Origin: Gammaproteobacteria bacterium
GTDB lineage: Bacteria > Pseudomonadota > Gammaproteobacteria > HK1
Assembly: GCA_021773795.1 (NCBI GenBank)
Contig: JAJFJT010000004.1
Span: forward strand, 17,204-81,203
DNA: 64,000 bases
Direction of reading: 5' to 3'
Shown here: positions 1-25,896 of the stretch, one piece after another
Numbering within the stretch: position 1 is the first letter of the stretch
Layout: each line of letters starts with the position of its first letter
The notes under the pieces: model-generated
Told to the model about the DNA's origin: nothing
Databases searched by the model: none
Seen by the model: only the letters and a program-made list of their open reading frames with translations
Program-made: the position numbers and the translations under genes

Positions 1-2
1 AG

Positions 3-8402: not shown

Positions 8403-8517
8403 AAACCCTCTTTTATTTTCATGTCTCCCAAGCTCCTACGCATCCTTCTGGCCTTTACGAACAAGGTATCTGGCCGAACGCGCCAAAAGTTAGCGGGACA
8501 GCAGTAATTTGGCCCCT

Positions 8518-8763: not shown

Positions 8764-8777
8764 AATTACAGCCTATT

Positions 8778-8822: not shown

Positions 8823-9094
8823 ATATCGATTCCAGATGCTTAGCGGCGAACAACTACCACGAATCTGTTAGCAGGGATAACTCTACTGATTCAATGGCTT
8901 AATACGGGTTAGCACAGTCAAGATAAACTAAGAGCACACCAATAACTCAACCCCATTGTCTAGTACCCACGTCAAAAACAATCCAACTTCATGCACCACC
9001 TCCTCGCCCCTTTTATGCTATATTTAATTCACCCAATGGGTGAACGATATTCAATGCTCTAACGACCCCTTCGTGATGCCAAAAGGATTTCACC

Positions 9095-9397: not shown

Positions 9398-10469
9398 CCA
9401 GGAAATTTATTCGGATCTGGCAGTAGCGCCCGGCGTGTACCTGACTGAGGTCACTGAAGAAATGAGCATGAGCCACGCTGAGCTCGCGCGGCGCATGGGC
9501 CGGCCGGTCCAGGCAATCAGTGAGATTGCCAACGGTATCAAGTCCATTACACCGGATACTGCATTGCAGCTGGAGCAGGTGCTTGGCGTACCGGCTCATA
9601 TCTGGACCGGGCTGGAGGCAGAGTATCAATTGACAAGGGCACGGCGTGCAGCTGCGGAGCAGGTGGAACATGAAACTGATCTGGCCGTCCACTTCCCATA
9701 CCCCGAAATTGCAAAACTCGGCTGGGTAAAGCCAACGCGCAAACGCTCTGAAAAGGTATTGGAACTGCGTCAGTTTTTTGGTGTGGCCTCACTACACAAT
9801 TTGCAGGGGGTACGCGCCTATGCGCCCGCATTTCGCCAATCTGCCAAAGCAGAAGTCTCTCATGAGGCATTGGTCGCCTGGTTGCGTGGAGGTTCGCTGG
9901 AGGCCGACAAGGTCGATACCAAATCATTTGACCGTGTAAAAGCACGTGCGACACTGCAAATGCTCCGTCACCTGACTCGAATGGAACCCGAGGTCTTTCT
10001 GCCAGCACTCAGACAGCAACTGGCGGAAGTGGGAATTGCGTTCGTGCTGCTTCCTCACTTTTCCAAAACCTATACCAATGGCGCGACCTTCTGGCCAACC
10101 TCAAATAAGGCCGTTTTAATGATGACCATCCGGGGAAGCTGGGCGGATATTTTCTGGTTCAGCCTGTTCCACGAGCTGGGGCACATCCTGCTGCATGACA
10201 AGCGCCATACCTTTCTGGAAAATGGCCTTGACGATCCCGACTGGAAGAAACAGGAAGAAGAAGCCGACGACTTCGCCCAGAAAACACTCATCCCGGCGGC
10301 AGCCTGGCGAGCATTCATTAAAACAGACGATTTCAGTGCAACACATATTGTGTCATTCGCGGATGAAATAGATATTGCTCCCGGAATCATCGTTGGCCGA
10401 TTGCAGCATGATGGCGTAATTCCTCCTAACCATCATATTCATCGAACTCGATATAAGTGGGCAAATTGA
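9387..10469 (+). CDS. HigA-like XRE HTH fused to ImmA/IrrE-type zinc metallopeptidase (360 aa)
   Basis: N-terminal HTH (MSHAELARRMGRPVQAISEIANG). C-terminal HExxH motif FHELGHILLHD. Confidence 0.75.
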   Translation: MATNQEIYSDLAVAPGVYLTEVTEEMSMSHAELARRMGRPVQAISEIANGIKSITPDTALQLEQVLGVPAHIWTGLEAEYQLTRARRAAAEQVEHETDLAVHFPYPEIAKLGWVKPTRKRSEKVLELRQFFGVASLHNLQGVRAYAPAFRQSAKAEVSHEALVAWLRGGSLEADKVDTKSFDRVKARATLQMLRHLTRMEPEVFLPALRQQLAEVGIAFVLLPHFSKTYTNGATFWPTSNKAVLMMTIRGSWADIFWFSLFHELGHILLHDKRHTFLENGLDDPDWKKQEEEADDFAQKTLIPAAAWRAFIKTDDFSATHIVSFADEIDIAPGIIVGRLQHDGVIPPNHHIHRTRYKWAN

Positions 10470-10502
10470 TAAACTTCTATGCAAACTGAAAGGAGAGCGA
10501 CC

Positions 10503-10664
10503 ATGAGCAAGAAACCAAGCAAACCGTCGCGCCGAAATCCTGTTGCCCAATATGCAGCACGATTTCAGCGGGCATCGGCATTTCGTGACCGTACCAAGTA
10601 CTGCCGTCACAACAAGCACAGGGGAAGGGAATCCTGGCCAGTGGGCACTGTACTCAGTGCATAG
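10503..10664 (+). CDS. small basic protein, ArfA-like (alternative ribosome-rescue factor candidate, 53 aa)
   Basis: ATG 8 nt after AAGGAG. NPVAQY..RF.R..FRDR..Y.R.NKHRGRESW loosely parallels the ArfA pattern (…LFRQRVE…GSY.RKGKH…NW). The stop codon sits inside a long hairpin, as in arfA. Confidence 0.4.
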   Translation: MSKKPSKPSRRNPVAQYAARFQRASAFRDRTKYCRHNKHRGRESWPVGTVLSA

Positions 10665-10678
10665 TGGCCAGGATTCCC
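10627..10678 (+). promoter_or_regulatory. 14-bp perfect-stem hairpin enclosing the 3' end and stop codon of the ArfA-like ORF
   Basis: GGGAATCCTGGCCA (10627-10640) pairs with TGGCCAGGATTCCC (10665-10678). The 24-nt loop has an inner GCAC/GTGC stem. TAG occupies the last three loop bases. Confidence 0.6.
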
Positions 10679-10861
10679 GCCCGGGAGGGCCCGCCTAATT
10701 CAGGGGCTCATGGCGAGGGGAGGCTTACGACCTCACCCTGGTTTAGCTCCGCCGCATTTTTCTTCTTAATTCCTATCGTTAAAACAGCCGTAAACACCCG
10801 GGACGACCTTCATTTTTTGTGCCCCATGTTAATTTGCCATGTTAGGGCCTCGCGACTATGA

Positions 10862-10880
10862 TGTACGGAAATGCCGTACG
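10862..10880 (+). promoter_or_regulatory. possible YefM-YoeB operator (paired GTAC cores)
   Basis: TGTACGGAAATGCCGTACG forms a dyad with two GTAC cores 13 bp apart, ~20 nt upstream of the yefM start. It resembles the TGTACA-core operators of E. coli yefM-yoeB. Confidence 0.3.
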
Positions 10881-10898
10881 TTGTTGAGGACTCCCCCA

Positions 10899-11180
10899 AT
10901 GGACACAGTTAGTGTGAATAAATTCAGGGATAACCTGAAAAACTTTGTGGAGCAGGTGGTTAGCCAACACATGCCGATCAAGATTACCCGTAGAGCTGGG
11001 GATGATTTTATTGTAGTAAGCGCCGATGACTGGGAGCGCGAGCAAGAAACGCTATATATATTACAAAACAGTGACTTAATGCGACAAATTGCTGCTTCGA
11101 TGGACACTCATCTGGACGGAGATGGATATAGGCCTACAGCCGAGGAAGCCGAGGAAGCCGATGAGATCATTGGCGTTTGA
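10899..11180 (+). CDS. yefM: Phd/YefM-family antitoxin (93 aa)
   Basis: MDTVSVNKFRDNLKNFVEQV… is a typical Phd/YefM N-terminus, with an acidic C-terminal tail. The ATG at 10899 is preferred over the longer ORF-track start. Confidence 0.8.
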   Translation: MDTVSVNKFRDNLKNFVEQVVSQHMPIKITRRAGDDFIVVSADDWEREQETLYILQNSDLMRQIAASMDTHLDGDGYRPTAEEAEEADEIIGV

Positions 11181-15452: not shown

Positions 15453-16793
15453 CTACAACCCATACCTGTCGATGAGGCGGTAGATACTTCGCTCGCTAAC
15501 ACCCAGTCGCTCGGCCACAGTGGCGCGATGCCCTGAGTATTTCTTCAATAAGTTCGAAAGATATCTTGCTTCTATCTCTGCAAAAGTCGGCTCGTGATCA
15601 AAACTTAAATTAACGCCATGCACGGAGTTTCCCGCAGTCAGCGATGCGGTCAAATGCCGGCGCCTAATTTTCTTTTCATCCTGGGACAGGATGATGGCTC
15701 GCTCGACTGCATTTTTCAGTTCTCGCACATTGCCGGGCCAGTCATAGGTAGTCAGTGCACGCATGGCGTTGCGGGACACGACCGTATTGATCCGGCGGGA
15801 AAAATCATGATTACAAATAAAATGATCGACCAGTTCCCGGATATCTTCCCGGCGCTCTCGTAACGGCGGCACCGTGATAACAAAGGCGCTCAAGCGGTAG
15901 AACAGATCAGAGCGAAATCTCCCCTCTTCAACCGCCTTTTCCAGATCGCAGTTAGTGGCGGCTACGATGCGTACATTGGCCCGCAGATCTTTGGTTCCAC
16001 CCACCCTGCGAAACATGTTTGTCTCGATCAGCCGGAGCAATTTGGCTTGAACCGGGAGATCGATCTCGCCGATTTCGTCCAGAAACAGTGTTCCGTCCTT
16101 CCCGCCTTCTACCAGCCCCTTCTTCTGCCTGTCCGCCCCCGTAAAAGCACCGCGTTCAAAACCGAAGAGTTCTGATTCGAAAAGCTTCTCCGGCAAAGTA
16201 CAGCAGTCCACTGCAACGAAATTCCCCCCGGATCGGTCGCTGTGCTCATGAACGGTTTTTGCAACCAGCTCCTTGCCCACACCACTTTCTCCCTGGATCA
16301 GCACCGTCATATCGGTTGCCGCGACCATATTGATTAGGTGATGAACATCCTGTAACGCCCGACTGTGCCCAATCAGGAGCTTCCTGCCCTCGCTCGCCTG
16401 TAAACGCTGCTTACAGAACAGATGTTCTGCACGCAGGCTGATACGGGCCAGAGCACGCTGTACGACGATCTCCATCTCGTCGAGACTGACTGGCTTGGCG
16501 AGATAGTCCTCAACCCCCACCTTCGTGGCTCTTACCGCATCTTTTACCGAGGCAAAGGCCGTCATCACCACCACTGGATAGTCGCTGAGCAACTGCGGTA
16601 ACAACTCCATACCATCGGCATCGGGCAAACACACGTCCATGAGCACCAGATCAGGTTCATGGGCATCAAGATATTGCTTGGCCTCCGCCCAGGAATGAGC
16701 GATCTCCGCGGTGCAGCCAATATGCTTCAAGTGTTCAATGATGAGGCCACCCAGGGCCTTATCGTCTTCGATGACCAGCAGTTCCTTCTTCAC
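15453..16793 (-). CDS. sigma54-dependent response regulator (NtrC family, 446 aa)
   Basis: REC domain, AAA+ sigma54-interaction domain (GESGVGKE, ESELFGFERGAFTGA), and a C-terminal Fis-type HTH. Confidence 0.9.
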   Translation of the reverse strand: MKKELLVIEDDKALGGLIIEHLKHIGCTAEIAHSWAEAKQYLDAHEPDLVLMDVCLPDADGMELLPQLLSDYPVVVMTAFASVKDAVRATKVGVEDYLAKPVSLDEMEIVVQRALARISLRAEHLFCKQRLQASEGRKLLIGHSRALQDVHHLINMVAATDMTVLIQGESGVGKELVAKTVHEHSDRSGGNFVAVDCCTLPEKLFESELFGFERGAFTGADRQKKGLVEGGKDGTLFLDEIGEIDLPVQAKLLRLIETNMFRRVGGTKDLRANVRIVAATNCDLEKAVEEGRFRSDLFYRLSAFVITVPPLRERREDIRELVDHFICNHDFSRRINTVVSRNAMRALTTYDWPGNVRELKNAVERAIILSQDEKKIRRRHLTASLTAGNSVHGVNLSFDHEPTFAEIEARYLSNLLKKYSGHRATVAERLGVSERSIYRLIDRYGL

Positions 16794-18694
16794 TGCAATA
16801 CCTCACTATCGTTGTCGGCATCGGAAAGCAAAACGCTAAACCGACTGCCCTCCCCCGACTTACTCTCCGCCGTCACACTGCCGTGATAGCGATCAACAAT
16901 GGAACGAAGGATGGCGAGCCCAAGACCAGTGCCCCGCACGCTGTCCGCTCGCCGGCTAAAAAAGGGATGAAAAATATAAGGCAAATCCTGGGGGGCAATA
17001 CCGACTCCTGTATCCTTCACTATAAGTTCCACTTTTCCATCCATCCTCCGCGTGCTGACATAAAGGTTCCCACCCTCCGGCATTGCATGAAAGGCATTCT
17101 GGAGCAAATTGAAAATGATCGTACGAAATTCACTTTCGGTCGCCAGCACGCGTAGCTCTGTCGACGCCAAGCTCTGCACCACGGATACACCGTGCGCTTC
17201 AGCCTCCCAAACGAGCAGTGATAGGGTCTCCCGAATCGCCTTGTTTACCTCTACCAATTCGGGACTTCCGGGGGCAGCACTAAGCTTGAGCAAGCGCTTG
17301 GTGATATCAATGCACCGATCAATCTGATCGTCGATTATCTGTAGATAATTCCCAAATACAGAAATATCCACGCCGGAGCGATCCGCCGTATTTACCATCG
17401 AATTCAGGGCCATCCGGAGCGCTGTGAGCGGATTGTAGATTTCATGGGCGACACCAGCAGCCAGGCGACCCAAATCCGCCAACCGCTGCTCCTGTGAAAA
17501 TTGGGTTTTTTCCTCCAGATCGCGCACCGATTCAACGATAAGATCCTGGCCCATAGCGCCACCACACCCACGTAGCGGAATAGCCATTATCTCCACCGGG
17601 AATGTCTGACCGTCGGCCCGCACAAAGCGGTCAAGGTATTTCACCGGCCCATCTTCCTTGCGGGCTTCATACAGCGGGCAGCGGACGAGAGTGGGCGGAC
17701 AGGGTTCATTTCTCTGGTGACTCGAAGCATAACAGGGGCTACCAATGTCCGATTTGTCACCGAGCCCGACCTGCCTGCGGTAGGCAACATTGGACAACAC
17801 CACTCGATACTGTCCATCAATAACGCGAATACCATCTGGAAAGGTGTCCACCAATGCCTGCAGGAACCGGTCACGTTCCTCCATCTCACGCATGTTTCGC
17901 TCAAGACTCTCTGCCATGTGATTGAAGCTTTGGCCCAGTTCACCCAATTCATCGTGGCCGAGGATGGCCACCCGCGCATCAAGGCGCCCCTCGGCTATCG
18001 CCCGGCTGGCCTCACGCAATTGCCACACTGGCAGTAGTATGAAACGCCTCATAAACCACCACCCACCAGCGACCACAATCAGCAATACCACAGCACCAGA
18101 ACCCAGTAGTAACAGGGTGGTTCGCCACGCCTGCATACGGATCGGTGCGGCATCGTAATCAACGAACAGAACCCCGTTGAAAGGATGGCTCCGTACATCC
18201 CCGTGGCAACCGGTGCATGGAACTTTATTCCGCACCGGATTGACGCCTCTTACAATCTCTCTCCCCTGTTCGTTTACCAGGAAGATGGTTGTGCGCTCCT
18301 CGTGCTCGCCATCCTGATGGCATTCCATACAGCCAGTATTCCGATCGCGAGCATAACGGCGACCAAGCATTTCAGGGTTGGATGCGAATCGTACTTCTCC
18401 CTCAGTATTGAGAATCATGACGTTCACGACCCCCGGCTGACGGCCCAATTTGGCAACGATATCGCGCAGACCATCCAGGTCTCGTTTTAGCATTGCATTC
18501 TCCAGAGAGGTCTGTAGCAGCCGATTGATATCCCCCACGATCTGACCGCGTTCCGCCTCCAGTTGTGCCCGGTACATGGTGAGAAACAAGATCAACAATA
18601 CAAAAGAGCTCGTGATCAGGCCCGCTACGGTCCCGAGCATAAACTTACGGCTGAGGCCACTCTCGACCCACCGCCTGCCCTCCGAAAACAACAT
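16790..18694 (-). CDS. sensor histidine kinase with periplasmic dihaem-c-type sensor, HAMP, Cys-rich PAS, HisKA and HATPase (634 aa)
   Basis: Two TM segments flank a loop carrying CMECH and CTGCH. The PAS region has SPCYASSHQRNEPCPPTLVRCPLY. H-box AHEIYNPL. 4-nt overlap with the regulator gene. Confidence 0.85.
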   Translation of the reverse strand: MLFSEGRRWVESGLSRKFMLGTVAGLITSSFVLLILFLTMYRAQLEAERGQIVGDINRLLQTSLENAMLKRDLDGLRDIVAKLGRQPGVVNVMILNTEGEVRFASNPEMLGRRYARDRNTGCMECHQDGEHEERTTIFLVNEQGREIVRGVNPVRNKVPCTGCHGDVRSHPFNGVLFVDYDAAPIRMQAWRTTLLLLGSGAVVLLIVVAGGWWFMRRFILLPVWQLREASRAIAEGRLDARVAILGHDELGELGQSFNHMAESLERNMREMEERDRFLQALVDTFPDGIRVIDGQYRVVLSNVAYRRQVGLGDKSDIGSPCYASSHQRNEPCPPTLVRCPLYEARKEDGPVKYLDRFVRADGQTFPVEIMAIPLRGCGGAMGQDLIVESVRDLEEKTQFSQEQRLADLGRLAAGVAHEIYNPLTALRMALNSMVNTADRSGVDISVFGNYLQIIDDQIDRCIDITKRLLKLSAAPGSPELVEVNKAIRETLSLLVWEAEAHGVSVVQSLASTELRVLATESEFRTIIFNLLQNAFHAMPEGGNLYVSTRRMDGKVELIVKDTGVGIAPQDLPYIFHPFFSRRADSVRGTGLGLAILRSIVDRYHGSVTAESKSGEGSRFSVLLSDADNDSEVLQ

Positions 18695-18965
18695 TTTTCA
18701 GTTCCTCCCCTAGCCCGCCAAACGACGTCGAGAACCCTTATTTCCTCCGCATCATATCCCGTCCGGTCACATAATCCACCACCCCAAAAGCAGGTCATGC
18801 CAACTTGGCGCTTAACTATTTCCAAATTATTCAAGTAGTTAGGATTAGCGTGCCAATATAGCCGCCATTTTGTCAGATCTTTGTTACAGAAAAACCCTAC
18901 CGCGCTCCTACGCACTAAATAAAAATAACTTAAATATCCGTTACTTAGGTTGATTTCAAACACCT

Positions 18966-18981
18966 TGGCACCGTACTTGCT
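18966..18981 (+). promoter_or_regulatory. sigma54 (-24/-12) promoter
   Basis: TGGCAC-CGTAC-TTGCT is an exact match to the TGGCAC-N5-TTGCW consensus. It points at the 19105 gene and lies in the divergent region next to the sigma54 activator operon. Confidence 0.75.
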
Positions 18982-19018
18982 TAGGAGAATGACAGTCGAG
19001 TGCTGAACTCCTAATTAA

Positions 19019-19077
19019 CTTGAAGGGCCCGCTGTACCGGGGCCCCGAGCTTGAAGGGCCCGTCGTACCGGGCCCCC
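19019..19077 (+). repeat. two direct 28-bp GC-rich palindromic repeats in the predicted leader
   Basis: CTTGAAGGGCCCGCTGTACCGGGGCCCC and CTTGAAGGGCCCGTCGTACCGGGCCCCC. Each can fold as GGGCCC…GGGCCC. Confidence 0.7.
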
Positions 19078-19104
19078 GGGGCTGCTGACTTGGGTATCAC
19101 AACT

Positions 19105-19410
19105 TTGAAAAAATGGCGTTGGTGGATAGAGACGGGTACAGCGGCCCTTTTCCTCATCACCCTGACAGGTATCACGCGTGCGGACTACCCAGTGGCCGGA
19201 GTAGAGCCATCCGCACGACCTGCAGGCGCACCCACCATAACCGAGCCAGAAAAAGGTCCAGGCTGGTACCAGCAAGCCTTGACCGGAGTAAGTAAACCTT
19301 ACCCTTACAGCCTTCGCTTTCTCGAAGATCAGGGCAATTGGTATACGCCCTTCACCCAACCAGGCATGACTGCGCCTTACGACATCCGCAGTTGGCACCA
19401 CGAACCATGA
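19105..19410 (+). CDS. small secreted protein (101 aa), unknown function
   Basis: TTG start gives MKKWRWWIETGTAALFLITLTGITRA|DYP, a signal-peptide-like N-terminus. The C-terminus is aromatic-rich (PYPYSLRFLEDQGNWYTPFTQPGMTAPYDIRSWHH). The start codon is uncertain. Confidence 0.45.
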   Translation: MKKWRWWIETGTAALFLITLTGITRADYPVAGVEPSARPAGAPTITEPEKGPGWYQQALTGVSKPYPYSLRFLEDQGNWYTPFTQPGMTAPYDIRSWHHEP

Positions 19411-19486
19411 CAATCAATACGACCCGCTGAATGAGCGGGGTGATTCCATGTACTTAGTAATAACCTTAAATCAGGAGATAAGATCG

Positions 19487-20932
19487 ATGATTCGAATGCG
19501 TAGCTTCAAACGAGCAGCAGGATTGGCAGTGGTGATCGGCGCCCTCGTCGCCGCACCACAAGCCCAATCTCAGATGTCCGGCATGGGCGGTATGTCCGGC
19601 ATGGGCGGAATGTCCGGCATGGGCGGAATGTCCGGCATGGGCGGTATGTCCGGTATGGGCGGTATGTCCGGTATGGGCGGTATGTCCGGTATGGGCGGTA
19701 TGTCCGGTATGGGCGGTATGTCCGGCATGGGCGGTATGTCCGGCATGGGCGGTATGTCCGGCATGGGCGGAATGTCCGGCATGGGCGGTATGTCCGGCAT
19801 GGGCGGCATGTCCGGTATGCGCGGCATGGGCGGAATGAGTGGCATGGGCGGTATGTCCGGCATGGGCGGAATGTCCGGCATGCGTGGCATGGGCGGAATG
19901 TCCGGCATGCGTGGCATGGGCGGTATGTCCGGCATGCGTGGCATGGGCGGAATGTCCGGCATGGGCGGCATGTCCGGTATGCGCGGCATGGGCGGCATGT
20001 CCGGCATGCGTGGCATGGGCGGTATGTCCGGCATGCGTGGCATGGGCGGTATGTCCGGTATGCATGGCATGGGCGGCATGTCCGGCATGCGTGGCATGGG
20101 CGGTATGTCCGGCATGCATGGCATGGGCGGTATGTCCGGCATGCATGGCATGGGCGGCATGTCCGGCATGCGTGGCATGGGCGGCATGTCCGGCATGCGT
20201 GGTATGGGCGGAATGTCCGGCATGCGTGGCATGGGCGGCATGTCCGGCATGCGTGGTATGGGCGGTATGTCCGGCATGCGTGGCATGGGCGGTATGTCCG
20301 GCATGCGTGGCATGGGCGGAATGTCCGGCATGGGCGGTATGTCCGGCATGCGTGGCATGGGCGGAATGTCCGGCATGGGCGGCATGTCCGGTATGCGCGG
20401 CATGGGCGGAATGAGTGGCATGGGCGGTATGTCCGGCATGCATGGCATGGGCGGAATGTCCGGCATGCGTGGCATGGGCGGTATGCGCGGCATGGGCGGT
20501 ATGTCCGGCATGCATGGCATGGGCGGAATGTCCGGCATGCGTGGTATGGGCGGTATGTCCGGCATGCGTGGTATGGCCGGAATGCATGGCATGGGCGGAA
20601 TGGCCGGGATGCAAGGTATGGGCGGTCACCGCCAGCCTGTTAATACCGAAGGCAAGGCACGGAAACAGAGCGAGAGATGGCTGCGTGCCACCGGTCTGCC
20701 CGGTTATAGCATTGGCAAGATCCGCAAAGTTAACAACATTTATGTTGTCAGCGTAGTGGGCGCCAAACCACCGCATGCGCTAGCCAATCAGCTTGTCATC
20801 CGCCAGGCCGACGGAGCCATCGTGCCGATCAATCCGGTGCGTATCGCCCGCATGTCTGGAATGGGTGGCATGTCTGGAATGGGTGGTATGTCCGGTATGC
20901 AGGGCCGTAAAGGCTGGACACCCCCACGCTGA
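19487..20932 (+). CDS. secreted methionine-rich repeat protein (481 aa)
   Basis: ATG 10 nt after AGGAG. Signal peptide MIRMRSFKRAAGLAVVIGALVAAPQAQS. About 350 residues of GMGGMS and GM(R/H)GMGGMS units, then a ~75-aa non-repeat domain (…WLRATGLPGYSIGKIRKVNNIYVVSVV…LVIRQADGAIVPI), then three more MSGMGG units. Confidence 0.8.
   Translation: MIRMRSFKRAAGLAVVIGALVAAPQAQSQMSGMGGMSGMGGMSGMGGMSGMGGMSGMGGMSGMGGMSGMGGMSGMGGMSGMGGMSGMGGMSGMGGMSGMGGMSGMGGMSGMRGMGGMSGMGGMSGMGGMSGMRGMGGMSGMRGMGGMSGMRGMGGMSGMGGMSGMRGMGGMSGMRGMGGMSGMRGMGGMSGMHGMGGMSGMRGMGGMSGMHGMGGMSGMHGMGGMSGMRGMGGMSGMRGMGGMSGMRGMGGMSGMRGMGGMSGMRGMGGMSGMRGMGGMSGMGGMSGMRGMGGMSGMGGMSGMRGMGGMSGMGGMSGMHGMGGMSGMRGMGGMRGMGGMSGMHGMGGMSGMRGMGGMSGMRGMAGMHGMGGMAGMQGMGGHRQPVNTEGKARKQSERWLRATGLPGYSIGKIRKVNNIYVVSVVGAKPPHALANQLVIRQADGAIVPINPVRIARMSGMGGMSGMGGMSGMQGRKGWTPPR
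19574..20626 (+). repeat. 1,053-bp in-frame tandem array of 18-bp and 27-bp units
   Basis: ATGTCCGGCATGGGCGGT and ATGTCCGGCATGCGTGGCATGGGCGGT units. Variation is mostly at third codon positions. Confidence 0.95.
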
Positions 20933-20970
20933 TAAGGATTACAGCGCACCTAAGAAGCGTTAAAGGGGGC

Positions 20971-21001
20971 AGGGATACACGGATGTATCCCTTTTTCTTT
21001 T
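20971..21001 (+). terminator. rho-independent terminator after the Met-rich gene
   Basis: AGGGATACA-CGGA-TGTATCCCT stem-loop followed by TTTTCTTTT. Confidence 0.7.
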
Positions 21002-21044
21002 GCTTACCCAACCTACCCGAATTCAGAAAACAGGAGCATAGATT

Positions 21045-21851
21045 GTGCGGCTTGGCAGACTGGAGATCCTGGCGACACTGCTACTTGCAGCAGGCATCAC
21101 AACAATGGCCATCGCGGATACTGCCGAAATAGCCCGGCAGCAATATCATGCGGAACAGTGGAATCCTATCCACTTCAAGCCAGACATTGAACACGCGACT
21201 GACGAACAATGCCTGGGCTGTCATCAGCAAATACTTAAACGCAGAGTACTGAAGCAGTCACCTGCAGGGGTCAAGGCCAGCGAGTCGCTGGCGTGGTATC
21301 AGACACTCAGTACCTACGAAGGTGGCCAGGAAACCTTTCACCGACGCCATCTTTTAAGCAAGCTGGCAAAAAAAACAATGGACCTCAAATGCGTCACCTG
21401 CCACCAGGGCAACGATCCCCGTGAGGAGGCGCCTCCCCCGAATACAACGGACGCCGGATTTACCCTGCGCAAGATGGTGGATCCCAATACCTGTCTTATG
21501 TGTCACGGCAAGTTCAATTATCAACTCATGGGATTACCCGGACCGTGGCCGGAAGTCAGTAAGATATTTGGTGATTCCTGCCTGACTTGTCACATAGCCA
21601 TTCGCACCAACCGTCACCAGGTAAATTTCCTTCGTTCAGAAAACATCGAAAAAGCCGGCAAAGAAAATGCCGACGTTTGCTACGGCTGTCATGGAGGACG
21701 CGCCTGGTATCGCACCAGCTACCCCTATCCACGCCACAGTTGGCCGAGCATGGCCAAACAGGTCCCTGAATGGGCTAAGGATCGAGCAACAAAATCATTG
21801 CCGCGTTTCCTTCCGGCCACAACCCGAAAACAAGGCATGGAGGCACGGTGA
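21045..21851 (+). CDS. pentahaem c-type cytochrome (268 aa)
   Basis: GTG start after AGGAG. N-terminal signal or anchor peptide. Five CxxCH motifs: CLGCH, CVTCH, CLMCH, CLTCH, CYGCH. Confidence 0.85.
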   Translation: MRLGRLEILATLLLAAGITTMAIADTAEIARQQYHAEQWNPIHFKPDIEHATDEQCLGCHQQILKRRVLKQSPAGVKASESLAWYQTLSTYEGGQETFHRRHLLSKLAKKTMDLKCVTCHQGNDPREEAPPPNTTDAGFTLRKMVDPNTCLMCHGKFNYQLMGLPGPWPEVSKIFGDSCLTCHIAIRTNRHQVNFLRSENIEKAGKENADVCYGCHGGRAWYRTSYPYPRHSWPSMAKQVPEWAKDRATKSLPRFLPATTRKQGMEAR

Positions 21852-24436
21852 AAGACAAAAAATCAGATGGCGTAAAGACCATGGCCCACGACTCAATGAA
21901 ATTTATCTCATCCCGCCTGAATGTGAACAGGCGCTCGTTCCTCAAGGCCTCGGCCGCGACGACTACGGCGCTTACAGCCGGGGGATTGATCAATCTCGTG
22001 GGGGCCACAAAAGCCAAGGCCTTTGCCTACGAGCCCTATCCTGGCGACGATGAACTGGAGACAGTCGTCACCAGTTGCGCCCATAACTGTGGGTCCCGCC
22101 ACGTACTGGTAGCCCACAAAAAGGGAGACGTCATCGTACGCCTGTCAACGGACGACGGAAGCTATCAGCGTGCGGGGGAATTTGGCAAAGATACCCTGGA
22201 GGAACCCCAGTTGCGGGCCTGCTTGCGCGGCCGCTCCTATCGCCAGCGGATCTATTCCGCCGAACGCTTGCTGTACCCGATGATACGGGTCGGCAAACGT
22301 GGCGAGGGAAGATTCAAGCGTGCGTCCTGGGACGCTGTGCTTGATCACGTAGCTGGCAAAATGATCGCTTTGAAAGAAAAGTACGGGCCTACCGCCCTGC
22401 TGGATCAAAGCTACGCCGGCGCCTCCTATGGTGTCCTGCATAAATCCGACCAGATCGACGGCCTGCTTGGGCGGTTTCTCGGCATGTTTGGATCCAGGAC
22501 CAACTCCTGGTCCGTGCCATCCTATCAGGGCACCACCTTCAGCTCGCGCATGACCTTCGGCACCATTGAAGACGGCAACGAAGACGACGCCTTCGCTCAC
22601 TCCAAGCTGATCATCATGTGGGGCTGGAATCCCGCCTACACTTTTCACGGTGGCAATACGTTCTATTACATGCGGGTGGCAAAACAACGGGGCTGCAAGT
22701 TTGTTCTGATCGATCCGCAATATACGGATTCTGCAGCAGCCTACGATGCCTGGTGGATTCCCATTCGCCCCAATACTGACGCCGCAATGATGGCGGCCAT
22801 GGCCTATCACATCTTCACCAATAACCTTCAGGATCAGGATTTTATCGATCGTTTTTCCCAGGGAGTGGATGCGGGAAGCATGCCAGGTTGGGCCAAGGGC
22901 CAGGAAAATTTCAAGGACTATATCCTCGGAAAATACGACGACACTCCGAAGACCCCCGAATGGGCCGAAAAAATTTGTGGCGTCAAGGCTAGCGACATTC
23001 GAAAACTGGCGCAGATGTATACGGCCACCAAACCAGCGGCCCTCAAGGCCTCCTGGGCACCGGGACGCGCAGCCTACGGCGAACAGTACAATCGCATGGC
23101 TGCAGCCCTGCAAACCATGACAGGCAATATCGGCGTCCTCGGTGGATGCGCCGAGGGCGTGGGGAAGGCCTGGCACCCCGAGGGGACAGCCGGTCCCTAT
23201 GATGGAAACAACAATATCTGGTTCCAGTCCATCAAATCCGACCGCTGGGCGCACTGCGTCTTGAACTACCCCAATTTGCGGCGCGAGGAAATCGGTCTGT
23301 GGCCGCGTTCGGATAACACCGATGGACAGATCCCCAACATCCGCGGGATCTTCTGGCAAGGCTCAAACTGGTTCAATCAGCTTACTAACATCAACAAGGA
23401 GATCCAGGCCATTGCCAAGCTGGATTTCGTCGTGTGTATGGATTCCACCATTACCTCGTCAGGAATCTGGGCAGATGTGCTGCTGCCGGTTGCATCTCAT
23501 TTCGAGCGACATGACGTGGCACTTCCCTGGTACAAGGGGCATTACTACATCCATCGCCCAAAGGTCATTGAACCCCTGGGTGAGAGCAAAACCGATCTCC
23601 AGATCTTCACCGAACTCGCACGCCGTATCGACCCGCGATTCGCACAGCGTTACAACCCCAAGGCCGATCGGAATTATTTCCACTATAACGACGATGTTGA
23701 TGAGGCCTACCTGAACGAATGGTGGGACCAAAGGGTCATGGGCCATCAGGGGGTGACCATGCCTTGGGAAGAATTCAAGCAAAATGGTATCTACAAGTTC
23801 AAGCTGCCACGGCCCCATGTCGCGTTTCAGGATCAAATTGAAAAGGGTATCCCGTTCCAAACCGCTTCTGGAAAAATCGAGATTTTCTCGGGCCAGCTCG
23901 CCCAGATCACTGACTGGACCAAAACCAGTTATGGATATCCCATCCCCTCCATTCCCAAATGGATAGAGCCGTGGGAGTCACTCAACAGTCCGGAGGCCGC
24001 GAAACATCCATTCCATCTGATCTCACCCCATCCGCGCTGGCGCACCCACTCCATATTCAACAACTGTAGTTGGCTGCGGGAAACCTACGAACACGAAGTC
24101 ACCATCAGCACCACCGATGCTCGGAAACTGGGGCTCAAGACCGGTGACATCGTGGAAGTATGGAATGATCGCGGCAGGGTGGTGGTTCCGGTGTACGTTA
24201 GTGAACGCTGCATGCCCCGGGTTGCGGTGCTCTATGAAGGCGCATGGATGTACCTCGACAAAAATGGGGTGGATCGTGGTGGTAATCCTGATTTCCTGAC
24301 ACTGGATAAACCCAGCCCGGCAGGAGCCTTTGCCTACAACACGGTACTGGCCAGCATCCGCAAGACCCGCCTTACCCATCGGCCTGGCTGGGACAAGCTC
24401 AGCACCTCCCGTGCCCGGACCTTCCGGCACAAATAA
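21848..24436 (+). CDS. Tat-exported molybdopterin (bis-PGD) oxidoreductase catalytic subunit, DmsA/YnfE-like (862 aa)
   Basis: GTGA overlap with the cytochrome gene, with GGAGG upstream. Twin-arginine motif NRRSFLK. DmsA-like blocks SCAHNCGSRH, RACLRGRSYRQRIYSAERLLYPM, IDPQYTDSAA…WIPIRPNTDAA, TASGKIEIFS. Confidence 0.85.
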   Translation: MKDKKSDGVKTMAHDSMKFISSRLNVNRRSFLKASAATTTALTAGGLINLVGATKAKAFAYEPYPGDDELETVVTSCAHNCGSRHVLVAHKKGDVIVRLSTDDGSYQRAGEFGKDTLEEPQLRACLRGRSYRQRIYSAERLLYPMIRVGKRGEGRFKRASWDAVLDHVAGKMIALKEKYGPTALLDQSYAGASYGVLHKSDQIDGLLGRFLGMFGSRTNSWSVPSYQGTTFSSRMTFGTIEDGNEDDAFAHSKLIIMWGWNPAYTFHGGNTFYYMRVAKQRGCKFVLIDPQYTDSAAAYDAWWIPIRPNTDAAMMAAMAYHIFTNNLQDQDFIDRFSQGVDAGSMPGWAKGQENFKDYILGKYDDTPKTPEWAEKICGVKASDIRKLAQMYTATKPAALKASWAPGRAAYGEQYNRMAAALQTMTGNIGVLGGCAEGVGKAWHPEGTAGPYDGNNNIWFQSIKSDRWAHCVLNYPNLRREEIGLWPRSDNTDGQIPNIRGIFWQGSNWFNQLTNINKEIQAIAKLDFVVCMDSTITSSGIWADVLLPVASHFERHDVALPWYKGHYYIHRPKVIEPLGESKTDLQIFTELARRIDPRFAQRYNPKADRNYFHYNDDVDEAYLNEWWDQRVMGHQGVTMPWEEFKQNGIYKFKLPRPHVAFQDQIEKGIPFQTASGKIEIFSGQLAQITDWTKTSYGYPIPSIPKWIEPWESLNSPEAAKHPFHLISPHPRWRTHSIFNNCSWLRETYEHEVTISTTDARKLGLKTGDIVEVWNDRGRVVVPVYVSERCMPRVAVLYEGAWMYLDKNGVDRGGNPDFLTLDKPSPAGAFAYNTVLASIRKTRLTHRPGWDKLSTSRARTFRHK

Positions 24437-24466
24437 CACCTTGAATTCAGGAGATAGATAGGCGCT

Positions 24467-25132
24467 ATGGGTACGCTTAAAGATCGAGCAAAAATCAAGG
24501 CGGCGGTTATCCGGCGCAAAAAAGAAACCTATGTCCCGGTCATCCCGGAAAAGCAGCTGGGATTCATCCACCACAATGTGGATTGTATCGGCTGCCGGGC
24601 CTGTGAGATTGCATGCAAAGACAAAAATGGCCTGCCTCCCGGTCCCCGATTCCGGAGAGTGCAGTATATCGAAGGTGGGACCTATCCAGAGGTTTACGCC
24701 TATAAGCTGAACATGTCCTGTAATCACTGCGCTGAGCCGGCATGCCTCCCTGTTTGCCCCACCGGCGCCATCTTCAAGCGCAAGAGAGACGGCATCGTCG
24801 ACATAGACTCTACGCTCTGTATCGGATGCCGCCGCTGCGAGGCGGCCTGTCCCTACGGTGCGCCACAATTCGATCCGATCGCGCGTATAGTCAAAAAATG
24901 CAACCTTTGCGTGGATGAGATTGATGCCGGACGGCAGCCTTACTGCGTGATGGCCTGCATGATGCGGGTGCTTGACGTCGGGCCTATCGACCAGATCTGG
25001 AAAAACAAATTGGTTACCAAGGCAACAGGCCCCACTGACAAGGTAGTACGTCAGGTTAAACACATGGCCGATCCTGAGTTGACCAAACCATCTATTGGAT
25101 TTATTCCCCACAGCAAGGGAAAAGTTGAGTGA
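24467..25132 (+). CDS. 4x[4Fe-4S] electron-transfer subunit, DmsB-like (221 aa)
   Basis: Four Cys clusters: CIGCRACEIAC, CNHCAEPACLPVCP, CIGCRRCEAACP, CNLC…CVMAC. Confidence 0.85.
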   Translation: MGTLKDRAKIKAAVIRRKKETYVPVIPEKQLGFIHHNVDCIGCRACEIACKDKNGLPPGPRFRRVQYIEGGTYPEVYAYKLNMSCNHCAEPACLPVCPTGAIFKRKRDGIVDIDSTLCIGCRRCEAACPYGAPQFDPIARIVKKCNLCVDEIDAGRQPYCVMACMMRVLDVGPIDQIWKNKLVTKATGPTDKVVRQVKHMADPELTKPSIGFIPHSKGKVE

Positions 25133-25896
25133 CCGCTGTTTCCAAGGCCGTTCCCGACCATCGGCTAGTGGAATTCCGTACGGCGGTGGCGGCAGACTTG
25201 ACCGTGCTTGCAATCCTGCACGAACGGGAAGCCGACAATGATCTGATCCAATCGCTAAAGACCACAGGCTTTCCGAAATCGCTGGGCCTCAAACTGATAT
25301 CAAGGCAAGGATGCGATGCCACACGGATGATGCAAAATGCCTTGACTGAATTGTCGGACCCATTGGCTCCAGATGATACCGACGAACTTGCGGCGGATTA
25401 CGCTGCCATCTATCTTCTCCATGCCCTTGCCGCCTCTCCTAACGAATCCTTTTGGGTGGATGAAGATCACCTTGAGCGGCAACTGTCCATGTTTCAGGTC
25501 CGTGCCTGCTACAAACGCCACGGACTGGCGGCGGCCGACTGGCGAAAGCGCTCCGACGATCACCTGACACTACAGCTTCAGTTTCTCACCCGTCTCATTG
25601 AACCGGAGAAACCGGGCGACGCCTGGAGCGAAATGGCACAGTTCATGGATGAACACCTGCTCCGCTGGCTGGAAAAATTTGCACTCAGAGTGGCAAACCG
25701 TTGCACAACCGAATTCTATGGCGGCGCTGTATTACTCACCAATGCTTACTGTGAGGAGCTGCGGGAGCTGCTAGCCCGGATCCTTGAAACTCCCCGTCCT
25801 TCCCGTGAAGAAATCGAGACGCGCATGAAAACCACCACGCCAGCACCGGTGGTCTCCGTAAAATTCATGCCCGGAGCTGATGGCCCGTCCTGGTAA
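25129..25896 (+). CDS. TorD/DmsD-family redox-enzyme maturation chaperone (255 aa)
   Basis: GTGA overlap with the FeS subunit gene. Position and helical, acidic sequence (…ELAADYAAIYLLH…) are typical of TorD-like REMPs. Confidence 0.6.
   Translation: MTAVSKAVPDHRLVEFRTAVAADLTVLAILHEREADNDLIQSLKTTGFPKSLGLKLISRQGCDATRMMQNALTELSDPLAPDDTDELAADYAAIYLLHALAASPNESFWVDEDHLERQLSMFQVRACYKRHGLAAADWRKRSDDHLTLQLQFLTRLIEPEKPGDAWSEMAQFMDEHLLRWLEKFALRVANRCTTEFYGGAVLLTNAYCEELRELLARILETPRPSREEIETRMKTTTPAPVVSVKFMPGADGPSW

What the first reader, a model, noticed from the sequence alone, without database searches (positions are those of the whole stretch)
15453..25896. Candidate new system: haem-sensor/sigma54-controlled Met-rich periplasmic protein with a cytochrome-linked DmsAB-type reductase
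**Gene order**
- A haem-c sensor kinase and NtrC-type activator, transcribed divergently.
- A sigma54 promoter, then a small secreted protein and the giant Met-rich secreted protein.
- A pentahaem cytochrome c, a Tat-exported DmsA-like Mo enzyme, a DmsB-like FeS subunit and a TorD-like chaperone.

**Established knowledge**
- DMSO-reductase-family enzymes (E. coli DmsABC, Haemophilus MtsZ/TorZ) reduce methionine sulfoxide.
- Azospira uses a Met-rich peptide plus a periplasmic MetSO reductase as a hypochlorite sink.

**Inference**
- The repeat protein is a high-capacity, rechargeable periplasmic oxidant buffer, or even an electron-acceptor store.
- Its Met-sulfoxides would be re-reduced by the adjacent cytochrome-fed molybdoenzyme, with expression set by a redox-sensing two-component system.

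**Alternatives**
- A Cu(I)/Ag(I) sponge that is merely adjacent.
- An enzyme acting on an unrelated S-, N- or Se-oxide.
Basis: inference. Interest (0 to 1): 0.9.

Follow-up and report, generated by a model that had tools for sequence, protein, structure and literature searches.

The report
Methionine-rich protein paired with periplasmic reductase
A secreted protein made of 117 unbroken Met-X-Gly triplets always sits directly upstream of one cytochrome-fed 'DMSO reductase' clade in sulfur-oxidising bacteria, so this enzyme probably recycles oxidised methionines on its own partner protein rather than respiring free DMSO.

Summary
- All eight genes are present, with a perfect sigma54 promoter.
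- The 481-494 aa secreted protein has a core of 117 uninterrupted Met-X-Gly triplets (33% Met).

- Among the 80 closest DmsA relatives (75-82% identity; Thiodiazotropha, Sedimenticola, Thiothrix, Competibacter, Chromatiaceae and others), every locus with readable upstream sequence (68 of 68) has a secreted Met-rich gene directly before the cytochrome-DmsA-DmsB-TorD genes.
- A 53%-identical relative keeps a Met-rich gene built from a different repeat, (GPGM)n.
- Relatives at 47% identity or less lack it.
- The small secreted protein, the haem-c kinase/NtrC pair, the sigma54 promoter and a hairpin between the Met-rich gene and the cytochrome gene are also conserved.

The enzyme has the Ser molybdenum ligand of S-/N-oxide reductases and no DmsC membrane anchor.

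Best reading (about 0.5): a periplasmic methionine/methionine-sulfoxide cycle. It works like MrpX-MsrP but is built from unrelated parts. No activity was tested.

Main rival: similar Met-rich stretches occur in copper-handling proteins, so a Cu(I) role is not excluded.

I found no paper describing the pairing.

The parts
15453..16793 (-). NtrC-type sigma54-dependent response regulator (receiver, AAA+ sigma54-interaction and Fis-type HTH domains)
   Evidence: Pfam PF00072, PF00158 (E 7.5e-66), PF25601 and PF02954. An orthologue lies beside the cluster in 37 of the 80 related loci, limited mainly by flank length.
16790..18694 (-). Sensor histidine kinase with a periplasmic Cache/PAS-like domain carrying CXXCH haem-c motifs (CMECH, CTGCH), then HAMP, a cytoplasmic PAS with a Cys triad, HisKA and HATPase_c
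   Evidence: with weak sCache_3_2, Tll0287-like and Paired_CXXCH hits on the periplasmic part. One CXXCH is kept in 33 of 35 orthologues, the second in 5, and the PAS Cys motif in 14.
18966..18981 (+). Sigma54 -24/-12 promoter TGGCACCGTACTTGCT, reading towards the small gene and the Met-rich gene
   Evidence: Exact consensus match and the only one in the window. A similar motif lies about 60-260 nt upstream of the small gene in 30 of 41 related loci. About 30 of the 60 such + strand motifs in 1.3 Mb of loci lie there, and about 17 more lie further upstream, mostly before the PepSY-like gene.
19019..19080 (+). Two tandem 31-nt copies, each a GC-rich hairpin (GAAGGGCCCG..GTACCGGG), in the 5' leader; role unknown
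   Evidence: two copies against 0.03 expected. The fold is not more stable than shuffled sequence (z = -0.55).
19105..19410 (+). Small secreted protein (about 27-residue signal peptide, about 75 mature residues, rich in Trp/Tyr/Pro/Phe); a family specific to this cluster; proposed partner or adaptor of the Met-rich protein
   Evidence: 231 homologues, all about 100 aa, unnamed and without Pfam domains. 25 invariant columns in 33 sequences. Present in all 42 related loci that have enough upstream flank. AF2 model mostly coil, pLDDT 67.
19487..20932 (+). Secreted Met-rich repeat protein (mechanical ORF from 19448; likely start ATG 19487 behind AGGAG)
   Evidence: A Met-rich secreted gene occupies this position in 68 of 68 informative related loci.
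19574..20626 (+). Repeat core: 117 consecutive M-X-G triplets (X = G, S, R or H), 33% Met
   Evidence: no phase break; TRF periods 27 and 72, score 1056.
20627..20857 (+). Non-repeat domain of the Met-rich protein (one helix plus four strands, PepSY-like). In many relatives it is the C-terminal domain of a separate secreted protein encoded upstream of the small gene
   Evidence: tblastn gives 31-44% identity to that separate gene in 29 loci. Single-sequence AF2 model, pLDDT 64. Only suggestive Foldseek hit: YpeB C-terminal PepSY domains, prob 0.99 but E 0.098. No Pfam hit.
20858..20932 (+). C-terminal tail: a short second Met-rich run (6 M-X-G triplets) ending ...GWTPPR
   Evidence: The family ends in ...SGW[RK] or ...W[TNQS]PP.. 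in most loci.
20971..21001 (+). Terminator-like hairpin AGGGATACACGGATGTATCCCT plus TTTTCTTTT between the Met-rich gene and the cytochrome gene; proposed leaky terminator that sets a high ratio of substrate protein to enzyme
   Evidence: My scan found a hairpin plus T-rich tail at the same place in 44 of 77 related loci; about half of these share the AGGGCGCAGGGATGCGCCCT-TTTCT type, and some of the rest are weak matches. Only 44 nt separate it from the cytochrome start, and no promoter-like site was found there.
21045..21851 (+). Secreted pentahaem cytochrome c (5 CXXCH); proposed electron donor to the FeS subunit in place of the membrane anchor DmsC
   Evidence: only weak hits to NrfB, c7 and c3 models. 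Present in 79 of 80 related loci, directly before DmsA.
21848..24436 (+). Tat-exported molybdopterin catalytic subunit, a distinct clade near DmsA/YnfE
   Evidence: TIGR02166 scores 587.8 bits, below its cut-off of 777.7. 35% identical to E. coli DmsA. Ser225 aligns with the Mo-ligand Ser147 and Tyr189 with Tyr114 of Rhodobacter DorA. The FS0 motif is C77-x3-C81-x3-H85...C125, with His invariant in the clade. The clade has its own C-terminal extension.
24467..25132 (+). DmsB-type subunit with four [4Fe-4S] clusters and no signal peptide of its own
   Evidence: TIGR02951 E 3.1e-56 and PF13247. Present in 79 of 80 loci.
25129..25896 (+). TorD/DmsD-type Tat proofreading chaperone
   Evidence: PF02613 E 1.1e-18 and NF003442 TorD E 1.2e-18. 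Present in 78 of 80 loci.

Best explanation
This is one conserved periplasmic module that cycles protein-bound methionine between the thioether and sulfoxide states.

Proposed mechanism:
1. A kinase with a periplasmic haem-c sensor domain activates an NtrC-type regulator. The regulator fires a sigma54 promoter.
2. The first two genes are made in excess. They encode a small aromatic-rich secreted protein and a secreted, flexible chain of G-M-[S/G] units with 117 Met in the core.
3. A leaky hairpin lets fewer transcripts continue into the genes for a soluble pentahaem cytochrome c, a Tat-exported Ser-ligated molybdoenzyme, its four-cluster FeS partner and a TorD-type chaperone.
4. Oxidants, or conceivably the enzyme running in reverse, convert the exposed thioethers to sulfoxides.
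5. Electrons from the periplasmic cytochrome pool pass through the pentahaem cytochrome and the FeS subunit to the molybdenum site, which reduces the sulfoxides back.

The Gly or Ser residues flanking every Met would let each side chain reach a deep active-site funnel.

Shown here: gene content, domain and ligand features, the promoter, the hairpin, and the conserved, clade-specific linkage.
Inferred: the substrate, the direction of the reaction, the sensed signal and the expression ratio.
For: 1. Linkage.
- Of 79 related loci with the cytochrome gene, 65 have a Met-rich ORF directly upstream by an automatic threshold.
- 11 contigs end less than 400 nt upstream and are uninformative.
- The 3 apparent exceptions hold shorter Met-rich secreted peptides on inspection.

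2. Selection acts on Met content, not on one sequence.
- A relative with 53% DmsA identity has a (GPGM)n gene at the same place.
- Lengths range from about 56 to about 500 aa.

3. Specificity. Relatives at 47%, 45% and 41% identity lack Met-rich genes. The 41% one is a canonical Crp-controlled DmsABC-DmsD locus.

4. Enzyme class.
- The closest curated family is DmsA/YnfE.
- The Mo-ligand Ser and the Tyr114 equivalent are conserved.
- DMSO-reductase-family enzymes reduce free and protein-bound MetO, including in unfolded proteins (PMC7402097 abstract; PMC5122715; PMC8340005).

5. Shared control. The kinase and regulator are adjacent in 37-39 loci. A sigma54 motif precedes the small gene in 30 of 41 loci.

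6. A hairpin between the 'substrate' and 'enzyme' genes was found in 44 of 77 loci.

7. Fusion. A domain that is a separate cluster gene elsewhere is fused to the Met-rich protein here.

8. Precedent. MrpX and YedY in Azospira form a Met-rich periplasmic sink with a Mo-dependent reductase (PMC4436054).

9. No cop, cus or sil genes are conserved near the cluster or present in the window flanks I examined.

10. 'DMSO reductase-like' genes are among the most highly expressed in Thiodiazotropha symbionts, alongside aerobic oxidases, and this has been called intriguing (PMC6872982; PMC12172469). A defence or buffer role fits that better than strictly anaerobic DMSO respiration. I did not verify by sequence that those genes are this locus.
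Against: - No activity, expression or phenotype data exist for this cluster.
- DmsA-type enzymes are promiscuous (DMSO, TMAO, selenate, N-oxides), so the sequence cannot fix the substrate.
- G-M-X runs of the same style occur in CusB-like adaptors, multicopper oxidases and an EfeO-type cupredoxin, so the chain could bind Cu(I) or Ag(I).
- A full cytochrome-FeS-Mo enzyme expressed at respiratory level is heavy machinery for repair alone.
- The conserved C-terminal Trp motif, the interspersed GYFKITPQGQIFFYPA and GQWVWVP motifs in relatives, and the small protein are not explained.
- The natural oxidant in sulfur oxidisers is unknown.
- The TIGR02166 cut-off is not reached, and the FS0 motif is atypical.
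- Only one relative in the 50-75% identity range and four outgroups were sampled.
Confidence: 0.5

Rival explanations
1. Free-substrate respiration. The enzyme respires a small soluble S-, N- or Se-oxide (DMSO, methionine sulfoxide from the medium, TMAO, selenate). The Met-rich protein has an accessory role, for example shielding the enzyme and cytochromes from oxidants or acting as a scaffold.
For: - Closest curated family is DmsA/YnfE.
- The literature annotates the gene as DMSO reductase and reports very high expression in symbionts living where DMSP and DMSO are abundant (10.64898/2025.12.05.692423; PMC6872982).
- Relatives at 41-47% identity work without any Met-rich partner.
Against: - It does not explain why a Met-rich secreted gene is kept at the same position in every informative locus, and through a change of repeat unit.
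- It does not explain why that gene comes first behind the shared sigma54 promoter.
- The clade also occurs in freshwater and activated-sludge lineages (Competibacter, Thiothrix, soil and lake MAGs), where DMSO is not an obvious major acceptor.
Confidence: 0.2
2. Copper or silver handling. The Met-rich chain is a periplasmic Cu(I)/Ag(I) buffer or store. The reductase is either unrelated or only keeps the copper-binding thioethers reduced, as MsrP does for CusF in E. coli.
For: - M-x-x-M spacing throughout.
- Similar G-M-X runs occur in CusB-like adaptors (P0251, P0256), multicopper oxidases (P0276, P0279) and an EfeO-type cupredoxin (P0260).
- MsrP maintains CusF during copper stress (PMC9302797).
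- Disordered periplasmic metal sponges exist, such as SilE (PMC5008109).
Against: - No cop, cus, pco or sil genes and no copper-type regulator are conserved with the cluster. The neighbouring P-type ATPase is type II, not a copper pump.
- The sensor is a haem-c kinase, not a CusS/CopS type.
- His is almost absent from the X position across the family: 3 of about 3600.
- The hosts live in sulfidic habitats where free copper should be scarce (my own knowledge).
- The strict pairing with one Mo-enzyme clade is unexplained unless the 'maintenance' version holds, and that version merges with the best explanation.
Confidence: 0.15
3. Sulfur handling. The thioether-rich chain solubilises or carries hydrophobic zero-valent sulfur or polysulfide in the periplasm of sulfur oxidisers, and the enzyme acts on an oxidised sulfur species.
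For: - The clade is concentrated in sulfur-storing or sulfur-oxidising lineages.
- G-M-X tails are also fused to a NapC/CymA-type cytochrome encoded beside fccAB and soxYZ, and to a secreted DsrE-like domain.
- In lucinid symbionts, dmsAB lies near soxY-S1c, yeeE/D and dsrAB (PMC11237559).
Against: - The Mo ligand is Ser, as in oxo-transfer S-/N-oxide reductases. Polysulfide, thiosulfate and tetrathionate reductases use Cys (established knowledge).
- No known chemistry links thioethers to sulfane-sulfur carriage.
- The cluster also occurs in Competibacter, Rhodocyclaceae and Hyphomicrobiales MAGs.
Confidence: 0.07

Closest known systems
MrpX with YedY/MsrP-MsrQ (Azospira suillum; PMC4436054)
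   Same: A secreted Met-rich protein is co-transcribed with a periplasmic molybdenum enzyme that reduces methionine sulfoxide. The sink is sacrificial and recycled, and a dedicated envelope-stress regulator controls it.
   Different: - No homology in any part.
- The enzyme is a bis-MGD DMSO-reductase-family heterodimer, not a sulfite-oxidase-fold MsrP.
- Electrons arrive through a soluble pentahaem cytochrome c, not the haem-b membrane protein MsrQ.
- Control is by a haem-c kinase, NtrC and sigma54, not SigF/NrsF.
- The sink has 117 Met in uncharged G-M-S/G triplets. MrpX is a small peptide with 20% Met and 44% charged residues.
E. coli / Haemophilus DmsABC, and Rhodobacter DorA
   Same: Tat-exported Ser-ligated molybdoenzyme with a DmsB-type FeS subunit and a TorD/DmsD chaperone. 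These enzymes reduce free MetSO, and DorA reduces protein-bound MetO (PMC7402097, PMC8340005).
   Different: - 35% identity to E. coli DmsA, and below the TIGR02166 cut-off.
- No DmsC quinol-oxidising anchor; a pentahaem cytochrome c takes its place.
- The third FS0 Cys is replaced by His.
- Clade-specific C-terminal extension.
- A dedicated Met-rich partner gene.
- Sigma54 control instead of Fnr/Crp-type control.
Periplasmic Met-rich metal binders (SilE/PcoE, CusF/CusB N-termini, the CueO Met-rich insert)
   Same: Secreted, Met-rich, partly disordered, with M-x-x-M spacing. Some CusB-like proteins carry nearly the same G-M-X runs.
   Different: Those proteins are encoded with copper or silver efflux and oxidase genes under metal-sensing regulators, and they are rich in His, Asp, Glu or Lys. 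This family is almost purely Gly, Met and Ser, and it is tied to a Mo-enzyme operon.
Bacterial collagen-like proteins (Scl, Lcl)
   Same: Gly at every third position. This is why Pfam Collagen and the NCBIfam adhesin models give hits.
   Different: The hits are compositional and far below the cut-offs (61 bits against 500). The protein has no Pro- or charge-rich X-Y positions, no trimerisation domain and no cell-wall anchor.

Membership tests
DmsA/YnfE subfamily of the DMSO reductase family (TIGR02166) | Score at or above the curated model cut-off | tested here: not met
   587.8 bits against a cut-off of 777.7. It is still the best-scoring model.
DmsA/YnfE subfamily of the DMSO reductase family (TIGR02166) | Molybdopterin and MGD-binding domains plus a twin-arginine signal | tested here: met
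   PF00384 E 1.3e-44, PF01568 E 1.5e-20, PF10518 and the RRSFLK motif.
DmsA/YnfE subfamily of the DMSO reductase family (TIGR02166) | Serine ligand to molybdenum | tested here: met
   Ser225 aligns with DorA Ser147 and with the corresponding E. coli DmsA Ser. It is invariant in 10 sequences.
DmsA/YnfE subfamily of the DMSO reductase family (TIGR02166) | N-terminal four-Cys FS0 cluster motif (C-x3-C-x3-C...C in E. coli DmsA) | tested here: not met
   The motif is C77-x3-C81-x3-H85...C125. The third Cys is His in all clade members and in the 53% relative. The 47% relative has C-x3-H-x3-C. Whether a His-ligated cluster forms cannot be told from sequence.
DmsABC-type membrane-bound reductase | DmsC/NrfD-type quinol-oxidising anchor subunit in the operon | tested here: not met
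   No such gene lies in the window cluster or in the related loci; a pentahaem cytochrome gene precedes dmsA in 79 of 80 loci. The canonical DmsC gene appears only in the 41% outgroup.
MrpX-MsrPQ methionine redox-cycling system | Secreted Met-rich protein encoded with the reductase | tested here: met
   The two proteins are analogous, not homologous.
MrpX-MsrPQ methionine redox-cycling system | MsrP (sulfite-oxidase-fold Mo enzyme) and MsrQ (haem-b membrane partner) | tested here: not met
   None of the eight cluster proteins hits those families. The enzyme belongs to the DMSO reductase family.
MrpX-MsrPQ methionine redox-cycling system | Oxidation of the Met-rich protein in vivo and its re-reduction by the enzyme | not testable with these tools
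   Needs biochemistry and intact-mass spectrometry.
Periplasmic Cu(I)/Ag(I) Met-rich binders | Genomic association with cop/cus/pco/sil genes or a metal-responsive regulator | tested here: not met
   No such genes are among the conserved neighbours or in the window flanks I examined.
Periplasmic Cu(I)/Ag(I) Met-rich binders | Metal binding by Met or Met/His motifs | not testable with these tools
   M-x-x-M spacing is present, but His is nearly absent across the family.
NtrC-family two-component control of a sigma54 promoter | Receiver, AAA+ sigma54-interaction and HTH domains, a cognate kinase, and a -24/-12 promoter at the target | tested here: met
   The promoter motif is conserved in 30 of 41 loci.
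Bacterial collagen-like proteins | Gly-X-Y repeats rich in Pro or charged residues, with a trimerisation or anchor domain, scoring above the model cut-offs | tested here: not met
   Only Gly periodicity is shared. NF046116 scores 61 bits against 500; the Pfam Collagen hit has no stretch that passes on its own.

The most novel reading that the evidence does not exclude
The Met-rich protein is a rechargeable, protein-based electron-acceptor store in the periplasm.
- When oxygen or another oxidant is available, its roughly 120 thioethers per chain are converted to sulfoxides. This could happen chemically, or by the enzyme running in reverse towards the cytochrome c pool and terminal oxidases.
- During anoxic spells, the cytochrome-fed DmsAB complex discharges the sulfoxides as a terminal electron sink for sulfur oxidation.
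- The DMSO/DMS couple lies near +160 mV, between typical quinol and cytochrome c potentials (my own knowledge), so both directions are thermodynamically reasonable.
- About 1e5 chains per cell would hold about 2e7 electrons.
- This would add a new storage polymer to organisms already known for storing sulfur, nitrate, glycogen or polyhydroxyalkanoate in fluctuating redox zones.
Probability: 0.12. Interest if true: 0.95.

Novelty: new variant of a known kind. Interest (0 to 1): 0.78.

Why it matters
- The enzyme clade is spread across ecologically important sulfur oxidisers: lucinid and tubeworm symbionts, Sedimenticola, Thiothrix, Beggiatoa-like filaments and Competibacter.
- Genes annotated as DMSO reductase are among the most highly expressed in Thiodiazotropha symbionts, where their role has been called intriguing (PMC6872982). 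I did not verify by sequence that those genes belong to this clade.
- The clade is always paired with a secreted poly-methionine protein. This reframes the enzyme from 'DMSO respiration' to a dedicated protein-methionine redox cycle, and it makes that idea directly testable.
- It would be a second, independently evolved example of the Met-rich-sink strategy, with roughly ten times the capacity per chain and a respiratory-type electron supply.
- Practical point: the repeat breaks short-read assemblies. 33 of the 80 contigs end in or just after it, and the window's own Met-rich protein was not found in the large protein collection under either start tested. The partner gene is therefore systematically missed in MAG annotation and probably in proteomics.

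Tried and rejected
- Collagen and adhesin model hits on the Met-rich protein: rejected as compositional.
- Homology search with the whole Met-rich protein: it returned a mixed set of low-complexity matches rather than the family. It was useful only for showing where else G-M-X runs occur.
- AF2 model of the small protein from a 33-sequence alignment: pLDDT 67, mostly coil, so no fold search was justified.
- AF2 and Foldseek for the non-repeat domain: no match below E 0.001. The PepSY-like reading rests on topology and one weak YpeB hit.
- Rfam over the whole window and, with permissive thresholds, over the leader and intergenic regions: nothing, so no Moco or other riboswitch.
- The tandem leader hairpins are no more stable than shuffled sequence.
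- The NapF-like poly-FeS gene that follows TorD in about 65 relatives, and the thioredoxin-NHL gene of some relatives, are absent from the 64-kb window.
- An independent promoter for the cytochrome/dmsAB genes: none found in the 44 nt after the hairpin.
- The claim that the kinase has two conserved haems: only one CXXCH is conserved.
- Literature searches for the repeat motif itself and for Met-rich proteins in sulfur oxidisers found no description.

Full report
**What is in the window**

The finding's gene list is accurate. On the minus strand lie two regulator genes.
- 15453-16793 encodes an NtrC-type response regulator with receiver, sigma54-interaction AAA+ and Fis-type HTH domains.
- 16790-18694 encodes a histidine kinase. 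Its periplasmic loop carries CMECH and CTGCH and gives weak Cache, Tll0287-like and paired-CXXCH hits.

In the divergent intergenic region, TGGCACCGTACTTGCT at 18966-18981 matches the sigma54 -24/-12 consensus exactly. It is the only match in the 64 kb, even with one mismatch allowed.

Downstream on the plus strand come six genes.
- A small secreted protein. The homologue alignment favours TTG 19105 as its start.
- The Met-rich protein. Its likely start is ATG 19487, behind an AGGAG.
- A pentahaem cytochrome c (21045-21851).
- A Tat-exported molybdopterin subunit (21848-24436).
- A four-cluster DmsB-type subunit (24467-25132).
- A TorD/DmsD-type chaperone (25129-25896).

A 9-bp hairpin with a T-run lies at 20971-21001, between the Met-rich gene and the cytochrome gene. 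There is no DmsC/NrfD anchor gene. The flanks are unrelated: a type II P-type cation ATPase upstream and hopanoid genes downstream.

**The repeat protein**

After a signal peptide come 351 residues that are 117 M-X-G triplets without a single phase break (MGG 45, MSG 43, MRG 20, MHG 6). The core is therefore one-third methionine. TRF sees the DNA array at 19574-20625.

A non-repeat domain follows at residues 394-470, then a short second Met-rich run that ends in GWTPPR. The collagen and adhesin model hits come only from Gly at every third position.

**Is the adjacency meaningful?**

A scan of one genome per species returned 80 loci whose DmsA is 75-82% identical. They come from Thiodiazotropha, Sedimenticola, Thiothrix, Competibacter and Contendobacter, Chromatiaceae, Beggiatoa-like and Arenicellales MAGs, and from some beta- and alphaproteobacteria.

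Gene presence in those loci:
- cytochrome 79 of 80, DmsB 79, TorD 78;
- the small protein in all 42 loci with enough upstream flank;
- the kinase in 39 and the regulator in 37.

For the Met-rich gene:
- 65 loci have a Met-rich ORF that ends 50-600 nt before the cytochrome gene. 22 of these are cut by the contig end.
- 11 contigs end less than 400 nt upstream of the cytochrome gene and say nothing.
- 3 loci fell below my threshold. On inspection all three encode shorter or less dense secreted Met-rich peptides at that position.
- One AT-rich Beggiatoa-like contig has a DmsA match with no cytochrome gene upstream and is the only different context.

So 68 of 68 informative loci keep the pair.

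The family is nearly pure Gly, Met and Ser. X in M-X-G is Ser 1948 times and Gly 1309 times, and His only 3 times. Most members end in ...SGW[RK] or ...W[TNQS]PP...

**How far the association reaches**

A search of 50%-identity representatives gave more distant relatives.
- The 53% relative sits on a 4-kb contig. The contig begins inside a (GPGM)n ORF, followed by a multihaem cytochrome gene, DmsA and DmsB. The repeat unit is different but the methionine richness and the position are the same. That argues for selection on exposed, Gly-flanked Met rather than on one inherited sequence.
- The 47% relative has DmsA, TorD, DmsB and a small cytochrome with a dCache kinase and a sigma54 regulator. 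It has no Met-rich ORF in 15 kb.
- The 45% relative has neither a cytochrome nor a Met-rich gene.
- The 41% relative is a canonical Crp-controlled DmsABC-DmsD locus.

The link is thus specific to this clade. Only one relative in the intermediate range was sampled.

**Regulation**

- A sigma54-type motif with at most one mismatch lies about 60-260 nt upstream of the small gene in 30 of 41 loci. A second one often precedes an upstream PepSY-like gene. These sites account for most of the 60 such motifs found on the + strand of 1.3 Mb.
- My scan found a hairpin plus T-rich tail between the Met-rich and cytochrome genes in 44 of 77 loci. About half share a recognisable AGGGCGCAGGGATGCGCCCT-TTTCT form; some of the other matches are weak.
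- In the window only 44 nt separate this hairpin from the cytochrome start codon, and no promoter-like site was found there.
- I therefore read the cluster as one sigma54 operon with a leaky internal terminator. That would make the first two products more abundant than the enzyme. This is an inference.
- One periplasmic CXXCH is conserved in 33 of 35 kinase orthologues. The second is present only in the closest relatives.

**The enzyme**

- TIGR02166 (DmsA/YnfE) is the best model, but it scores below its cut-off: 587.8 bits against 777.7.
- Identity to E. coli DmsA is 35%.
- Ser225 aligns with the Mo-ligand Ser147 of Rhodobacter DorA, and Tyr189 aligns with Tyr114, the residue linked to S-oxide preference. 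Trp116 is replaced by Gly.
- The FS0 motif is C-x3-C-x3-H...C. The His is invariant in the clade and in the 53% relative.
- The clade has its own C-terminal extension.
- By established knowledge, a Ser ligand places it with the oxo-transfer S-/N-oxide (and YnfE-type selenate) reductases. Polysulfide, thiosulfate, tetrathionate and arsenate enzymes use Cys, and the Nar/Ser/Clr type uses Asp.
- With a soluble pentahaem cytochrome in place of DmsC, the complex should be a soluble periplasmic enzyme fed from the cytochrome c pool. This is an inference.

**Other cluster members**

- The small protein defines a family of 231 unnamed proteins of about 100 aa with no Pfam domain. It has 25 invariant positions, many of them aromatic or Pro. 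Its model is mostly coil.
- In about 26 relatives a secreted protein with PepSY-like repeats is encoded upstream of the small gene. In the window its last domain is fused to the Met-rich protein instead.
- About 65 relatives encode a NapF-like poly-[4Fe-4S] protein after TorD. Some add a monohaem cytochrome and a thioredoxin-NHL protein. None of these is present in the window.

**Best explanation and rivals**

The most economical reading is a methionine/methionine-sulfoxide cycle on a dedicated carrier protein. [quoted passage not shown] Azospira pairs the Met-rich peptide MrpX with the Mo enzyme YedY/MsrP as a hypochlorite sink (PMC4436054). The present module works like that pair but shares no homologous part with it.

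A possible natural oxidant in these hosts is the set of products of aerobic sulfite autoxidation, which oxidise thioethers. This comes from my own knowledge and was not tested.

Rivals:
- Free DMSO or other oxide respiration, with an accessory Met-rich protein (0.2).
- Cu(I)/Ag(I) handling (0.15). It is supported by G-M-X runs in CusB-like adaptors, multicopper oxidases and an EfeO-type cupredoxin. It is weakened by the absence of copper genes and copper regulators and by the lack of His.
- A sulfur-carrier role (0.07). It is suggested by G-M-X tails on a NapC/CymA-type cytochrome encoded beside fccAB and soxYZ and on a DsrE-like protein. The Ser ligand argues against it.

**Literature**

- 'DMSO reductase-like' genes are reported among the most highly expressed genes and proteins of Thiodiazotropha symbionts, together with aerobic oxidases (PMC6872982).
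- dmsB and dmsD are among the top transcripts during upwelling (PMC12172469).
- A 2025 preprint still treats the role as undemonstrated DMSO respiration (10.64898/2025.12.05.692423).
- I did not verify by sequence that those genes are this locus, although Thiodiazotropha endolucinida carries it (L027).
- No paper found mentions the Met-rich partner or its repeat motif.

**Verdict**

- The system-level linkage is strongly supported.
- The mechanism is plausible but untested.
- In function this is a new variant of the Met-rich-sink idea, built from different parts, widely conserved, and probably overlooked because the repeat breaks assemblies.

Noticed in passing
L001-L080 and L081, upstream ends of the contigs: Short-read assemblies break at the Met-rich repeat. 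22 contigs end inside it and 11 end just downstream of it. A second assembly of the window's own locus (L081) also starts right after it. The window's Met-rich protein was not found in the 15-billion-protein collection under either start tested. The gene is therefore systematically under-annotated.
   Followed up: partly
L082 10001-10873 and L084 10001-10879 (proteins P0249, P0248, P0257): Membrane-anchored NapC/CymA-type tetrahaem cytochromes carry a C-terminal (G-M-X)n tail of about 80-100 residues. They are encoded next to flavocytochrome c sulfide dehydrogenase (fccAB) and soxYZ. Met-rich tails also occur on a secreted DsrE-like protein (P0245), an OmpA-like protein (P0243) and as linkers in a dihaem cytochrome c (P0250).
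   Followed up: partly
window 22076-22102 (DmsA residues 77-85): The FS0 iron-sulfur motif reads C-x3-C-x3-H where E. coli DmsA has a third Cys. The His is invariant in the clade. A 47% relative has His at the second position instead. This suggests a His-ligated or otherwise altered cluster.
   Followed up: partly
window 19019-19080: Two tandem 31-nt GC-rich hairpin units lie in the leader between the sigma54 promoter and the small gene. They occur nowhere else in the window. Their function is unknown.
   Followed up: partly
window 17650-17730 (kinase residues about 322-348): The cytoplasmic PAS domain of the kinase has a Cys triad, C-x12-C-x6-C, with a nearby His (PCYASSHQRNEPCPPTLVRC). It is conserved in 14 of 35 orthologues and may be a second metal or redox sensing site.
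   Followed up: partly
L005 14079-15149 and equivalents in about 65 loci: A poly-[4Fe-4S] protein of about 340-356 aa follows TorD in most relatives; I read it as NapF-like from its cluster motifs. It may be a maturation factor for the unusual FS0 cluster. It is absent from the 64-kb window.
   Followed up: partly
L005, L006, L011, L028, L048, L052 and others (Met-rich ORFs): Many family members interrupt the Met runs with conserved aromatic motifs, GYFKITPQGQIFFYPA and GQWVWVP. The window's protein lacks them and has unusually many Arg and His at the X position.
   Followed up: no
window 1-11000: A low-GC stretch (0.40-0.46 between 1 and 6000) holds a HipA-type toxin kinase gene (7046-8341), an HTH plus IrrE-like peptidase gene (9387-10469) and a 773-aa ORF with no Pfam hit (3634-5955). 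It may be a mobile or defence island.
   Followed up: no
window 39667-44103: Two adjacent paralogous methyl-accepting chemotaxis protein genes, each with a large uncharacterised periplasmic region of about 350 residues before the HAMP domain.
   Followed up: no
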